A DNA stretch of 64,000 bases from Bdellovibrionota bacterium (lineage in GTDB: Bacteria; Bdellovibrionota_C; UBA2361; JBIKUX01): positions 32,001 through 96,000 of the forward strand of contig JBIKUX010000001.1 in NCBI GenBank assembly GCA_044347345.1. The letters run 5' to 3'. Below are positions 39,001 to 45,000 of this stretch, one piece after another. A program made the position numbers. Numbering within the stretch: the stretch's first letter is position 1; each line of letters begins with the position of its first letter.

Positions 39001-42000
39001 TCCCATAGGAATTGAGCTTCCTCAAACAGTAATACTGACTATAGCTGATACGGAACCAGAGTTAAGAGGTGCTACGGCTAGTAATTCTCCAAAACCAGCT
39101 AAGACCACAAGTGGTCTTAGCTTATCTGTTCCACCATTTGTAAAAATTGGTGATCGAATAGTAGTTAATACCGAAGAGGGAACTTACGTAAAACGAGCTG
39201 AGTAAGGCTGTATCAATTAAAGGCGATTAAGGGATGATAACGAGAAAATACTCGCCCAACTTATGCTTTTTAATCAGAGCTGGCCTCTTAGGACTCTCTA
39301 ACCAACGGGAGTCCCTAACCAATTTATATTTCTGCTTTATATTACTGCGAGGCTACCTCTGTCCTATAGAAAGCATTAACTGGAACCGGATAAATAGAAC
39401 CGCTTTCGCTAGCTCTGAATAGAGAGTGATCAACAATTACTAAAAGCTGGCTCCCTAATGATGAAGTGCGTCCAATTTGCACAATCTCACCGGTCATGGC
39501 CAAGCTAATAGGGTCTAAATGGGCTTCAGTCAGTCTCCAATGCATTATGTCACCATCACGTCCAACGGTGAAAACAGAACCATCTTTATCATCAACTGCT
39601 AAATCATATATTAAACTTTTATGAGCTTGAACTTGTGCAATTTTTTTCATGCCTCTTGTTCGCCATACTTCAACTAAGCCGGAAGTTCTCGCTATCCAGA
39701 GAAATTCACCCTGTGGATCTAGAGATGCCTCAACCACACCCCCTTCTGTAGAAGAAGCAGGAGACGGCATGCCGGCAGAAAACTTAGTTGGGGTATCAGT
39801 GAAATACCGACCAGAAAAAATATTGCGGTCATAAATTCCGCCATGTAGGTCAGCATCGTATGTTTGCCATAGATTGAAAGCTCCGCCTAAATCACCCGAA
39901 AAAAAAGCCTTGGCGAATGGATGAAAAATCACAGAACTAACTACACTATTATGGCTTACGTACCTCTCCAAAGTTCGCTTCTTTGCACTGAGCGAGTGTA
40001 CCGCTCGCTCGCGTTTAAAAAGCCACCGATAAATCTTACCATCAGAGGCACCCACTAAAAGAGACTCTTCGTCTGGGCTGAATCCAAGTGCAGTTACCCT
40101 CGCTGATACTGGAGGTAAACGCTGACTAACTTCAAAGTTAACATCACCCTTTCTCGTAAAAAGGTTTACCTCTAACGTAGAAGATACCGCGAGAAATGTA
40201 CCATTAACTGAAAGAGCACAACGGCTGATACTAGAATTTAACTTAGTTATCAAACGAACATCGATATCGTCGTTAAAATTTTCATCCAGATTCCAAATAC
40301 GAATTGAGCCATCTTTATGACACGATAAGATGGTGTTTTTTTTGAGGTGCTTAACATCTGGGGCTTTGTCTTTAAACATCTTCCCACCAGTGATGATGTT
40401 TGTGCTATTTGTGCCTATCCTATCTCTTGGGATAGCCCACAAACTCACTATCTGGCTAAACTCATGGTTGATATGGTTCTTGATAAAGCTCGTATCACGC
40501 TTTATCACTGTATTATCTAAAATCACTGTGTTATCTAAAGAACCTCTATCAAAAATTCTATTTTTTAAGTCATCTGAATCTGCCAAGGAATCTGTGGTGG
40601 CCCAAAAAACCATCTCTGCCAAAAAAGAAGTGGCACAGCACAAAAGCAGGCGAAAAATGGTGTTTTTTACAGATATCCTCACTAAGACATTCCTTCTCTC
40701 AAGTATTCCTTAATCTAAGGCTCACTCGGGTACTTGCCTTTTACTAGGGTGAGGGTATCTTTATGTGACGCTGATTACCAGCGGTTCACATTAGTTATAA
40801 AGATTAATTTTTAGGAAATTATATACTAAGATATTCTGAAGCTTAGCATTCGTAGTCGCGCCAAACAGTAAAATTACATGGGTTATAAATAGACTACAGG
40901 TGGTTTCAGGATAAAACTCTGGTAAAGCTATGGTGAGATTATGAAGACTTAGTGATACACTTAGGAAGTAATAAACCCAAGTAAGTAATAAACCCAAGTA
41001 AGTGGTAATCTGACTAAGTAGTAATCCGAGTAAGTGGTAATCCGGGGATAGGTCTTAAAAGGCCTCGTATTTTAGGTACGTACGGTATGTACGCCCCAGA
41101 GACTAAGTAAACAGAGACTAAGTAAGCCCTGCAGAGAGTTTATCCTTGTAGGCTACTAGGTAGTTTTACTAGACCCTGTAGGTTACATAAACTGAGCTAG
41201 ACGCACTCTTCTTAGAGGGAGGTTTTCTTAGAGGACGGGCTTCTTAAAGGACGGGTTGCCGTTGGGTAAAGGCCAAATAAAAATCAAAACATACTCTTTT
41301 AAAAAAAGGCTTAGTAATGCAAGAGGAATCAAAAAATCTAAACGAAAACAACGACAGTCACACTGACAAGTCAGAATACTTTTTTCGCCTCACTGGAAGC
41401 GCCGTAGCCTCAGATTTAGCTTCTAAACTCAAACTTACAGAGCCGTTTCCTGTAGGCGAAGAATTCTTTTCTCAATGTTATTCAGGAAGGGATTCAGTTT
41501 TTATCAACCCAAATGAAACAGTATTTCCTGCTCTAATTGGGACTTTTTTAGCCAGTGTCAAGGAACGAGATAGCCGTCGACGAGTCGCTATTGTGGTGGC
41601 TGACACTACCGAACCGGGAGAAATTAGAAATATCTTAAAGAAAGGGGGGTTAACATGTGACCCAGTTACCGACATCGAACTTACAGGTAGCGGTTACACC
41701 GGTGATGTAATTGTTGGAACACCTCAAGAGACTCATTTATTTTTTCAAAGCGAGGCATCAAGAGCTACCGACATCGGCAAAGTTATCATAGTAGGAATTA
41801 CTCCTGAAATGAGAGTAACCCTAGATGCAGTTCTTGAAATCGCCTCAAAAAGAGCCAAAAGACCTCAGTTCATTAGCATGACTTCTAGCCGCTCGAGTGA
41901 GGTAGAGGCTCTCACCGTTAGGTACTTTCAACTTCCGCGAGATTCACTCACTCACGTTCAGTTTGAGCTTGAGGGAGATGTTCTTGCTAAGCCCAATGCT

Positions 42001-45000
42001 TTGGCAGCTCTTCTCGAATCTGAGGGAAGATGTCCAACTCTCGTTTTTTGCAACCAGCCATCAGATGCAGATTTTATAGAGGTACTACTCAAAAAAGCTG
42101 GCCTTACAGCCACAAAGCTTATCGGTAATGCTCCAGCTTCAAAGGTTCAGCAAGCTCTAAGCAGAGTCCTTTCAGGACAAACTGTTGCTCTTATAGCGAC
42201 TGATGTAGCAGCTAGACTAATTGACCCTCACGAATTTGAACTAATCGTCAACTATTCGATTCCAAGTGACCCTGAGATATACATTCATAGAACAGAAAGT
42301 TCAGGAACAGGGCAATCCCTCAGAAAAATAGTCAATCTAGTTGGCCCACTTGATAGGGCTAATTTCCATTACATTAAAAAAGTAGTTGAAGCTAACTTCA
42401 TAGAAGGAAATCTTCCTCCCGCAGAAGCTGTCTTGGGAGCCAGAGTTGGACAACTTAGAAAACGTGCTCTTGAAGCTGCTCCTCTCATATCATCAGAACT
42501 TCAAAAAATAGCTGAACTTGTCGATCAAGGTGGAAGCCGTACCGAAATTATAGCTTATCTACTATCTCTTGAGGTGGAGCATTCTGAAACATCTCAACAA
42601 TTCAGAAGCTCAGAAGACGATATATCTCACGACCGTAATCGAGATCGCGACCAACGTAGTGGTAGTGGTGCCGGAGCTGGTCGGCGAGATCGTGACCGCA
42701 ATAGCGGTGGAAGTAATGACCGTGGCAGAGAAGGCAGAGGAGACGGACACAGTCAAAGCCGAGGTCGTGATAGAACCAACCGCCGCCATGATAGTAACGA
42801 CAGAGACAGTAGTGACAGGTTTGATAATTACAGCGACCGAGATCAACTGCGTGGTGAAAGAGGTAGTCAGGCTCGAGACAATGAAGAAAATCAAAAGAAA
42901 CCTGAACCAGTTCCTACCGTTTCTATAGCTCGACTTTATGTTGAATCATCAGGATCATCTAAACTATCTGAAGCTCAACTAAGAGAGGCTATTAATTCTG
43001 TAGACCCAGAACTAAATAAAAACATAATAAGAGTAAGCTCACGCCAAAATTACACCTTTTTAGATGTTCTAGAGTCAACAACAGATAGAATTCAGACTAT
43101 CCTTGAGCAAACTAAATTTGGAAAAAATGAATCTCTGGGAGTACTCAAAGCTTTAAGCCTTTCTGTTCCAACAGACCGTCCTTCAGAAGATAAAGAAGTC
43201 TCTCAATCAAACTCCAATTTAACTGACACTAACAGCGATATCAGCGATAATGATAATAAAGAGGCTCAAGACAGTCAGCCTCAGGGGTCACCCTCTGTAG
43301 TTGATTTTGATGAAATCGCGCATGCCTAAAAAATAAAAAAGATCAAACCGCCTAACTCAATTAAATAACAAAAATAATAACTGAGCTTAGATGCGGTTTG
43401 ATCAATTATTAATTGCAAAATATTCAAGCTATAAAACTTTTTGCCTTTCAAGAACTATCCACAAAGTTTGCATTAAAAGTCAAAAATCACTGGTTAGAAA
43501 TCTACAGGAGAATTTTTTTGAGAGGATTAACTAATAATCTATCATTAAAGATATTTTTACTTTCCTGCCTCATTTTAACAGGCACAGTAATACCCATCAT
43601 AAAATATTGTGAGTTACTAAATAATTTTGCTATCAATATCCCGGCTTGGGATGACTTTGATTCTACCCTCAATTTTCTTTTAGATTTTCAGTCCGCTCCT
43701 GATGTCCAAACAAAAGTATCCTTAATTCTCAGTCAGCATAACGAGCATAGGATCATCCTAAATAGGCTTATTTCTTTAGTTCAATATTGGCTCTACGGAT
43801 CGGTAAATTTTAGATGGCAAGTCATTTTTGGAAATGTTGCGCTAATCATTTGGTTTTTGGTAGCATATCGGGTTCTTCGCAGAGTAACTGATTCATCGAA
43901 AACAGAGAATAATTTTCTTCTTCCCTCTTTTCTTCTTTTACCAACATATCCTTTTTTGCTTCAACCTCAATACGGCGACGGTATGCTGTGGTCTTCAACA
44001 GTGATCGGCAGTTTTTGGTCTATTGCACTCGCTATACTAGTTTTGCATCTACTAAAGGTAAAATTTTGGCATGCGTGCTTGTTGATGCCATTAGCTGTAT
44101 TTACTCAAGGTAACGGTGTCGTACTACCTATTTGCGGTGCATGTAGCTTAGCTCTCAGTAAAAGATGGCGCGAGCTAGGGTGGTGGATACTTATAACTAT
44201 CTTTGCGCTTGGCCTATATTTTAACGGCTATAAATCTCCTGTTGGTCATCCTTCGCCAATCAATGCTCTTATGCATCTAGAGCGTACTAGCAGTTACTTT
44301 CTAGCTTTCATAGGCTCTGGTTTAGGATTCAGCAATCTTTTATTATCTCAGATTTACGGTAGCCTAGTTTTAATCATCTTTATCTATTGTTTTATCTTCA
44401 GAGCCGACAAACGAGCCCCGGAGTTATTCTTCACCGTTGTATTTTTACTAGGTACAGCGGGAGTAAACTCTCTTTCACGAGCAGAATTTGGCTCTAGCTA
44501 TGCTATTCACCAAGATAGATACCGTTTTATCTCATGTGCCTTAACGGCCACTACTTATCTTTTAATCATCTCATTACAATCAGCAAAATTACGTAAAGTT
44601 ACCACATTAGTGGTACTACCACTATCAATAGCTTTCTGTTGGAAGAGTTATGACACTTACAGCTGGCGCTTAAGATTATTTCACACCGATTATCTAGTTT
44701 CAGATTTATTTGAATGGTGCTTCGGCGGATCGAAACTAACCTATCCTTGGTCTGATCGCTCTGAGCCTATAATTAATAGGAGTCTACAGTCTGGAATATA
44801 TACAATTCCTGAATCATCACTAAGTGTTCAAGCTGCTAAGCATGAAATAAATATCTCGCTGGTAAAGCCACCAAAACTAGCCACAGCTATAGACCGTGTT
44901 TTTACCACACCTAAATATTTTATCGTGTCAGGATGGGCATATAAGTCTAAGCTTCGCCCAGATAAGAGTACTATTCTTATCGCCATACAATCACCATCAC

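What a model noticed while it worked through the whole genome (the two positions that open the first line are those of the whole stretch)
41317..43329. A DeaD-derived pseudo-helicase that has lost its ATPase motifs, and often the whole RecA1 domain, kept across the order [...]
Beside an intact DeaD (g02167) the genome keeps a DeaD paralogue, g01384, without Walker A, DEAD box or motif VI. Orthologues across the order are likewise dead, and most have dropped RecA1, leaving RecA2 plus a DbpA-type RNA-binding domain.
Evidence so far: An orthologue is in all 14 order genomes among 25 class genomes searched (19 of 25 overall, call 201). None of 14 loci has GxGKT or an aligned DEAD box, and 9 of 14 start at RecA2. 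Pfam gives Helicase_C in 5 of 5 and DbpA in 3 of 5, with no DEAD domain.
(Added by a program. Inside this text positions count along the whole contig: contig position 32,001 is position 1 of the stretch shown here. "Call 12" and the like, gene names such as g00115 and contig names such as C1 are that model's own, and its searches are not shown. The text may have been shortened before it was handed on; [...] marks where a part breaks off. The agent that wrote the report below was given it as the finding of a first reader that could run no searches.)

Follow-up and report, generated by a model that had tools for sequence, protein, structure and literature searches.

The report
ATP-dead bacterial DEAD-box helicase descendant
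In a lineage of uncultured bacteria, an RNA-unwinding motor protein has lost its engine but is kept almost everywhere for its RNA-gripping half, even where no working motor of this kind is found, which points to an energy-free RNA-chaperone job.

Summary
The 670-aa ORF (41317-43329, +) is a real, conserved DEAD-box pseudoenzyme: eroded RecA1, RecA2, dimerisation-domain fold, Arg-rich linker, DbpA-type RNA-binding domain (RBD) and acidic tail, without Walker A, DEAD, SAT or motif-VI arginines. A dead copy occurs in 87 of 88 order genomes searched; 54 of 86 lack RecA1; RecA2 dN/dS is 0.01-0.07. The gene is not a spare copy of the genome's canonical DeaD. It occupies the locus (divergent from a WD40 gene) where other orders carry an intact, lineage-specific DeaD-like helicase. 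The active duplicate moved, lost its RBD (0 of 44 read) and was not found in 29 of 88 genomes; nine genomes keep the dead protein with no DEAD-box enzyme detected. Eleven genomes outside the order also carry dead forms, and an RpoB+DnaE tree needs five changes (single clade rejected, p-AU 0.0001), although the gene tree cannot exclude one origin. One homologue (P0123) keeps the ATP-site residues. Best reading: an ATP-independent RNA chaperone/scaffold, probably for ribosome assembly. Function is untested. My literature searches found no bacterial case.

The parts
41317..43329 (+). Gene for the 670-aa DEAD-box pseudohelicase (P0001)
   Evidence: covered end to end by contigs of RNA runs X1 and X2
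41374..41937 (+). Eroded RecA1 (residues 20-207): fold kept; Q, Walker A, Ia, DEAD and SAT lost; only GTP of motif Ic left
   Evidence: model pLDDT mostly 80-94; Z 19.6 to eIF4A-2 domain 1, Z 19.1 to CshA domain 1; motif table
41941..42414 (+). RecA2 (residues 209-366), the most conserved part; motif IV Lys to Pro, motif IVa Arg lost, motif V TD kept
   Evidence: Pfam Helicase_C E 3.4e-12
42286..42309 (+). Decayed motif VI (HRTESSGT in place of HRxGRxGR): first Arg kept, both phosphate-binding Arg lost
42415..42588 (+). Helical region with the fold of the Hera/CsdA dimerisation domain (residues 367-424)
   Evidence: RecA2+DD aligns to Hera 3i32 Z 22.0, rmsd 3.2 over 206, and to CsdA 5gi4 Z 20.9; dimer itself not tested
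42607..42903 (+). Disordered Arg/Asp/Gly-rich linker (residues 431-529), equivalent to CsdA IDR1
   Evidence: pLDDT under 50; 25 K+R, 24 D+E, 5 RG; family medians
42916..43170 (+). DbpA-type RRM-fold RNA-binding domain (residues 534-618); the only one of this type found in the genome
   Evidence: conserved R539 Y541 R576 Y579 F581 D583
43171..43326 (+). Acidic disordered tail (residues 619-670); basic and Arg-rich in the intact ancestors
   Evidence: net charge negative in 75 of 75 order-type dead copies, 0 of 16 intact full-length
39342..40682 (-). Divergent WD40 beta-propeller gene; synteny marker of the ancestral locus, probably not a functional partner
   Evidence: Pfam; adjacent in 44 of 46 dead and 14 of 16 intact full-length loci with enough flank
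40683..41316 (+). About 630-nt intergenic region with short 16-17-nt tandem repeats; possibly a long 5' leader
   Evidence: RNA-run contigs reach back to 40784-40863; family median spacing 142 nt over 70 loci

Best explanation
The protein descends directly from a lineage-specific DeaD/CsdA-like helicase (RecA1-RecA2-DD-IDR-RBD-tail) and has given up ATP-driven unwinding while keeping the RNA-handling half. Shown: loss of the ATP-site motifs, remodelling of the canonical RNA track on RecA2, retention of the DD and RBD folds, strong purifying selection, ancestral locus, persistence without the active sister. Inferred mechanism: it dimerises through the DD, which RecA2 stabilises. Two RBDs and the Arg-rich mixed-charge linker bind and bring together structured RNA, most likely nascent 23S rRNA or pre-50S particles. 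It promotes annealing and local concentration of RNA and assembly factors without ATP. The newly acidic tail may act as an RNA mimic that releases substrate, in place of ATP turnover. RecA2's conserved surface has probably become a protein- or ribosome-docking platform. RecA1 is a dispensable remnant.
For: Dead copy in 87 of 88 order genomes, active sister in 59 of 88; 15 of the 29 sister-less genomes are at least 90% complete. No DEAD-box enzyme detected in nine genomes that keep the dead copy (best PF00270 at most 101 bits against 135-178 for true members). RBD present in 82 of 82 uncut order copies and 0 of 44 sisters read. dN/dS 0.012-0.074 for RecA2 (14 of 19 pairs measurable), 0.013-0.21 for the RBD (13 of 19), 0.10-0.22 for eroded RecA1 (8 of 12). 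Folds match Hera/CsdA RecA2+DD and the DbpA RBD. CsdA anneals RNA without nucleotide (PMC3590231, passages). The CsdA C-terminal module condenses with RNA, also when ATPase-dead in vitro (bioRxiv 10.64898/2026.09.17.752289, section 8). RecA_C is needed to stabilise the Hera DD (PMC11850223, passages). An acidic tail releases RNA from Hfq (PMC5606850, abstract).
Against: No activity, binding or localisation was measured. In E. coli, ATPase-dead CsdA gives the same ribosome defect as a deletion (bioRxiv 10.64898/2026.09.17.752289, passages), so a dead CsdA is not useful by default. The motif IVa Arg is lost in 86 of 86 and motif IV Lys is Pro in 77 of 86, so RecA2 probably binds RNA poorly. The DD is only 26% identical across 38 non-redundant copies. 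The gene has no ribosome-related conserved neighbour, so the rRNA target rests on family precedent only. P0123 keeps all ATP-site residues. The out-of-order dead forms scored for the tail (2 only) are basic, so the acidic tail is not general.
Confidence: 0.5

Rival explanations
1. Targeting subunit for an active helicase: the dead protein supplies the RBD in trans to the RBD-less active sister, or to other DEAD-box enzymes, through a DD heterodimer or a shared RNA condensate. This would be a natural version of the engineered Hera trans-heterodimer.
For: Reciprocal anatomy: dead copies have the RBD, sisters never do (0 of 44; 0 of 3 in family f26). Intact RBD-bearing and dead forms were never found in one genome among 33 out-of-order genomes. 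RecA1-less copies usually co-occur with a sister (46 of 54, against 11 of 32 for RecA1-bearing). Hera trans-heterodimers retain some activity (PMC11850223, passages).
Against: Sister not found in 29 of 88 genomes, including all sampled members of families f7, f12 and f13 and the single-contig genome G089. Only 18 of 44 sisters keep a DD, and the window genome's own sister has none. The RecA1/sister association is not significant on independent pairs (median p 0.5). In Hera the RBD works mainly in cis.
Confidence: 0.17
2. Not a ribosome factor but an mRNA-side adaptor: the RBD and linker bind mRNAs, and the remodelled RecA2 surface or acidic tail docks an RNase, PNPase or the translation machinery (degradosome scaffold or translational regulator).
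For: RecA2 residues replaced uniformly rather than randomly (P248, G270, N349, F350, H351, K355 conserved) suggest a new protein interface. Acidic tails often recruit partners, and CsdA/CshA join degradosomes (both recalled). A possible long leader suits autoregulation.
Against: No conserved RNase neighbour; no partner identified; near-universal retention in small genomes fits a core process such as ribosome assembly at least as well.
Confidence: 0.2
3. A nucleotide-binding switch or slow ATPase in part of the family, uncoupled from unwinding; the RecA1-less forms are a later simplification.
For: P0123 keeps Q, GKT, DE and HRxGRxGR; P0011, P0012, P0015 and P0130 keep subsets; eroded RecA1 is still under purifying selection.
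Against: Only 1 of 93 RecA1-bearing sequences (protein hits and loci, partly overlapping) has the full set, none has PTRE, and the window protein has none. RecA1 presence changes 10 times on the dead-gene tree.
Confidence: 0.08
4. A decaying pseudogene or annotation artefact with no function.
For: Low identity to active helicases and frequent N-terminal deletions.
Against: Open frames across the order, dN/dS far below 1, invariant residues, conserved locus, and over 100 clusters at 50% identity.
Confidence: 0.02

Closest known systems
E. coli CsdA/DeaD, T. thermophilus Hera, CshA (dimeric bacterial DEAD-box helicases)
   Same: Domain order RecA1-RecA2-DD-IDR-RBD-tail; RecA2+DD superimposes on 3i32/3ear/5gi4 (Z 21-22)
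   Different: No ATP-site motifs; RNA-track residues of motifs Ia, IV and IVa changed; RecA1 deleted in most members; tail acidic; all NCBIfam DEAD-box scores far below cut-off; parent is a lineage-specific subfamily, not the canonical DeaD of the same genome
DbpA/YxiN
   Same: RBD fold: best Foldseek hits are DbpA; YxiN RBD Z 8.8, tied with other RRM-type folds
   Different: Has DD and long IDR; hairpin-92 specificity untested; no catalytic core
Utp25/Def, eukaryotic pseudohelicase of the SSU processome (PMC9539457, part 1 of 4 read)
   Same: DEAD-box fold with catalytic motifs lost, conserved across a lineage; proposed non-catalytic role in ribosome assembly
   Different: Bacterial, independent origin; intact ancestors, relocated active duplicates and intermediate stages are all still visible; carries its own RBD and often only one RecA domain
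Hfq (ATP-independent RNA chaperone with acidic autoregulatory tail; PMC5606850, abstract)
   Same: Functional analogy only: basic RNA-binding surfaces plus an acidic tail
   Different: Unrelated fold; the analogy is untested

Membership tests
Active DEAD-box RNA helicases | Q motif and Walker A (GxGKT) | tested here: not met
   Absent in the window protein; GK[TS] remnant in 6 of 87 order copies
Active DEAD-box RNA helicases | Motif II DEAD and motif III SAT | tested here: not met
   VGIT and TSS in the window protein; DExD in 0 of 87; hydrophobic-DE remnant in 4 of 93 RecA1-bearing sequences
Active DEAD-box RNA helicases | Motif VI with both gamma-phosphate arginines (roles from PMC4227776, passages) | tested here: not met
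   Second Arg in 6, third in 1, both in 1 of 86; P0123 is an exception among protein hits
Active DEAD-box RNA helicases | RNA-binding motifs Ia, Ic, IV, IVa | tested here: not met
   PTRE in 0 of 93; IVa Arg in 0 of 86, IV Lys to Pro in 77 of 86; motif V Thr kept in 80 of 87
Active DEAD-box RNA helicases | Two tandem RecA-like domains | tested here: met
   Met for the window protein by model and fold match; not met in 54 of 86 orthologues
Active DEAD-box RNA helicases | RNA-stimulated ATPase and unwinding activity | not testable with these tools
   Needs biochemistry
CsdA/DeaD-Hera type | Dimerisation-domain fold after RecA2 | tested here: met
   Residues 209-424 align with Hera 3i32 (Z 22.0, rmsd 3.2, 206 aligned) and CsdA 5gi4
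CsdA/DeaD-Hera type | Actual homodimer formation | not tested
CsdA/DeaD-Hera type | DbpA-type RBD at the C-terminus | tested here: met
   Fold hits to DbpA; Pfam below cut-off in the window protein but above cut-off in 13 of 20 close relatives
CsdA/DeaD-Hera type | Curated family score for DeaD, CshA or DbpA | tested here: not met
   Best 64 bits against cut-offs of 507-989
Pseudohelicases (Utp25-type definition) | Helicase fold with catalytic motifs lost | tested here: met
Pseudohelicases (Utp25-type definition) | Maintained by selection | tested here: met
   dN/dS 0.012-0.074 on RecA2 in 14 measurable pairs of 19, none including the window gene
Pseudohelicases (Utp25-type definition) | Experimental inactivity and a demonstrated cellular role | not testable with these tools
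   Uncultured hosts; no assay
DbpA/YxiN | Specific binding of 23S rRNA hairpin 92 | not testable with these tools
   Fold alone does not show specificity; PMC3093544 (passages) notes that a DbpA RBD does not dictate hairpin-92 targeting

The most novel reading that the evidence does not exclude
A whole bacterial class has repeatedly (up to five times) converted its own RBD-bearing DEAD-box helicase, in place, into an ATP-free RNA scaffold that is more indispensable than any DEAD-box ATPase. The protein organises ribosome assembly (annealing or a nucleolus-like condensate) through dimer, IDR and RBD alone, and in the largest lineage an acidic tail has replaced ATP turnover as the release mechanism.
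Probability: 0.3. Interest if true: 0.85.

Novelty: new variant of a known kind. Interest (0 to 1): 0.68.

Why it matters
Bacterial DEAD-box proteins are treated as ATP-driven motors, and surveys select them by their motifs, so a motif-less family is invisible to them (PMC3093544 kept only proteins with all ten motifs). Here evolution separated the motor from the RNA-tethering half and kept the tether, apparently several times. The family gives a natural series (intact ancestor, P0123-type intermediate, eroded RecA1, RecA1-less, RBD-less active sister) that can be expressed in E. coli. It can test how much of CsdA/DeaD function in ribosome assembly and condensate formation needs ATP, and whether an acidic tail can substitute for ATP-driven release.

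Tried and rejected
Reading the coordinates as contig positions (window 9317-11329) gave an unrelated gene. A genome scan with the single protein found nothing; the alignment was needed. A split gene was rejected within the flanks held: a profile of eroded RecA1 found no separate RecA1 ORF beside RecA1-less copies (flanks mostly 0.5-1.5 kb). Derivation from canonical DeaD was rejected. An obligate heterodimer was rejected as the general function. Gene trees could not settle the number of origins: all-dead clade p-AU 0.123 and 0.325; f26 dead with its sister and G023 p-AU 0.111. The tree is the quick tree because the careful search did not finish, and one search was a failed cutting step. A profile from intact ancestors' RBDs ranks the window protein only second in its genome (E 0.012); the strong hit uses a profile that contains it. 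Rfam found nothing credible in 38400-43500; promoter-like sites were at chance level. RNA-run contigs cover neighbours patchily, but the runs were chosen by this gene and are one study, so they rank nothing. A phylum-level search returned only the same class. Complex prediction and earlier findings were not available. PMC11840561 (3 passages) gave nothing on ATP-independent activity.
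Full report
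Observation. The window holds a 670-aa ORF at 41317-43329 (+). Pfam finds Helicase_C only. The best solved-structure sequence hits are the RecA2+dimerisation fragments of CsdA and Hera, and all NCBIfam DEAD-box scores are far below cut-off. Aligned to intact relatives, motifs I, II, III and VI read NET, VGIT, TSS and HRTESSGT. A model from 21 relatives (mean pLDDT 73.7) shows a complete RecA1 fold (Z 19.6, rmsd 2.5 to eIF4A-2 domain 1), RecA2 with a Hera/CsdA-type dimerisation domain (Z 22.0, rmsd 3.2), a disordered linker, an RRM-type domain and a disordered tail. Folded alone, residues 530-621 hit E. coli DbpA first (4 of 4 matches under E 0.001); in the wide search YxiN's RBD scores Z 8.8, tied with other RRM-like folds. 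Record titles of related loci mostly say Bdellovibrionota or similar, as does the nearest Atlas cluster, 80 members named 'hypothetical protein'.

Distribution. Of 121 class genomes searched (88 in the order including G000, 33 outside), I read the best locus of each order genome. A dead copy is in 87 of 88; RecA1 is deleted in 54 and eroded in 32 of 86; the RBD is present in 82 of 82 copies not cut by a contig end; DExD is in none. Both motif-VI arginines survive in 1 of 86, the motif IVa arginine in none, and motif IV Lys is Pro in 77; the roles of these residues are taken from PMC4227776 (passages). Among 160 protein hits examined (21, 139 new), 146 lack motif VI and DEAD, and 137 of those carry the RBD. 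Exceptions: 6 of 87 order copies keep a GK[TS] remnant, three proteins pass the Pfam DEAD cut-off, and P0123 keeps Q, GKT, DE and HRxGRxGR but not motif Ia. Selection is strongly purifying: dN/dS 0.012-0.074 on RecA2 (14 of 19 pairs with unsaturated dS), 0.013-0.21 on the RBD (13 of 19) and 0.10-0.22 on eroded RecA1 (8 of 12); the window gene has no close DNA partner and is in no pair. Contigs from three RNA runs of one freshwater study cover the gene, two of them end to end; contigs cannot prove transcription.

Parentage. G000 has two intact DEAD-box genes, on C14 (406 aa) and C64 (539 aa, canonical DeaD type), and neither has an RBD. Outside the order, 19 of 33 genomes carry one intact full-length helicase of the same subfamily (G059 is cut); 17 of 18 scanned have Pfam DbpA. 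Inside the order an intact 'sister' was found in 59 of 88 genomes; none of the 44 read has an RBD and 18 keep the dimerisation domain. Trees on RecA2+DD, with catalytic motif columns dropped, put dead copies, sisters and full-length forms in one clade (SH-aLRT 94) apart from canonical DeaD, with the order-type dead copies monophyletic (98 in the quick tree; 95/94 in the careful tree). Synteny is decisive. A WD40 gene lies divergent upstream of 44 of 46 dead copies and 14 of 16 full-length genes with at least 900 nt of flank; of 18 loci classed as sister, the only one with it is the cut full-length gene of G059. lspA and, in several loci, an ileS-like gene (identity recalled from sequence) lie beyond. 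The dead gene is therefore the ancestral gene at the ancestral place, and the active sister is a moved duplicate.

The dead copy outlasts the enzyme. The sister was not found in 29 of 88 order genomes, 15 of them at least 90% complete. I searched 15 chosen genomes with PF00270 (14 carriers lacking a sister, plus G004, which has no dead copy). Five have other, unrelated DEAD-box enzymes. Nine carriers (G038, G040, G056, G064, G104, G094, G120, G069, G001; 70-94% complete) have no hit above 101 bits, against 135-178 for true members. These are incomplete assemblies chosen for the trait, so this is 'not found', not proof of absence.

Repeated origin. Eleven out-of-order genomes carry RecA1-less dead forms (G001, G005, G009, G011, G013, G027, G031, G033, G041, G045, G057), none together with a full-length gene; three genomes had neither. 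Those checked sit at the same locus. On an RpoB+DnaE tree of 31 genomes the dead state needs five changes, and a single dead clade is rejected (p-AU 0.00012); G013 sits inside family f27 with two intact genomes (support 100). The gene trees cannot reject one origin (p-AU 0.12 and 0.33), nor the alternative placement tested; long branches make them uninformative. An ancient tandem duplicate with differential loss, or replacement in place by transfer, is not excluded. Dead-carrying genomes outside the order are smaller (median 2.9 against 4.0 Mb after completeness correction, 11 and 19 genomes, no phylogenetic control).

Mechanism. What is kept is the module that in CsdA anneals RNA without nucleotide (PMC3590231, passages) and drives RNA-dependent condensates at ribosome assembly sites (bioRxiv 10.64898/2026.09.17.752289, passages and section 8; its supplements were not seen). 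The linker keeps the length and mixed, Arg-rich charge of the ancestors, while the tail is acidic in 75 of 75 order-type copies and in 0 of 16 ancestors scored (the script scored only sequences where its anchor matched). By analogy with Hfq (PMC5606850, abstract) the tail could release RNA. RecA2 has lost its canonical RNA contacts yet is the most conserved part, which suggests a structural and docking role; RecA_C stabilises the Hera dimerisation domain (PMC11850223, passages), and isolated RecA_C binds RNA in some DEAD-box proteins but not others (PMC4176333, abstract). I put 0.5 on an ATP-independent RNA chaperone/scaffold, most likely for ribosome assembly; 0.2 on an mRNA-decay or translation adaptor; 0.17 on a targeting subunit for active helicases; 0.08 on residual nucleotide switching. 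Against the best reading, ATPase-dead CsdA fails in E. coli, no ribosomal neighbour is conserved, and dimerisation could not be tested.

Comparison and novelty. It works like the C-terminal half of CsdA/Hera but fails the DEAD-box membership tests. It meets the sequence and fold part of the pseudohelicase definition given for Utp25 (PMC9539457, part 1 of 4). Nine searches of the held library returned eukaryotic pseudohelicases (Utp25; a C. elegans complex, listing only) and the EcoP15I DNA enzyme (listing only), but no bacterial DEAD-box pseudoenzyme family; subscription journals are largely missing from the library. PMC3093544 (passages; supplements not opened) states that the DbpA RBD occurs only with DEAD and Helicase_C domains except in a few small Treponema and Gemmatimonas genes. 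I rate it a new variant of a known kind, interest 0.68.

Noticed in passing
window 40683-41316: Unusually long spacer (about 630 nt; family median 142) with tandem 16-17-nt repeats (four copies at 40974-41042, three at 41208-41257, two at 41097-41125). RNA-run contigs start at 40784-40863, so it may be a long leader as reported for E. coli csdA (10.1101/2021.03.08.434349, listing only). No Rfam match.
   Followed up: partly
ESM Atlas cluster, rank 25: A 58-member cluster of about 386-aa proteins with only the DbpA domain, mostly Gemmatimonadota; possibly another independent dead DeaD derivative. Other Helicase_C+DbpA clusters in that list may be N-terminal fragments.
   Followed up: no
G000 C14:27516-28757 (-): The active sister here is a bare 406-aa core without dimerisation domain or tail, on a long branch, next to typA/bipA-like and pilus-type genes (read by eye).
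   Followed up: partly
L212, L217, L221, L154 (family f4): In this family the RBD-less sister lies directly beside a second intact DEAD-box gene.
   Followed up: no
P0246, P0251, P0252, P0254, P0259: Intact outgroup subfamily with RBD, several with DECD in motif II; taken as Myxococcota-like from recall, not from a call.
   Followed up: partly
window 39342-40682 (-): Secreted-looking WD40 beta-propeller conserved across the class upstream of ileS-like/lspA genes; function unknown.
   Followed up: partly
L275 (G047:C198): G047 holds two RpoB genes; one is on a long separate branch, likely contamination.
   Followed up: partly
window 14000-14100 region of the nuoN-like ORF 12477-14204 (-): The translation contains a four-copy peptide repeat (PRSDI) near the C-terminus; exact place not mapped.
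   Followed up: no
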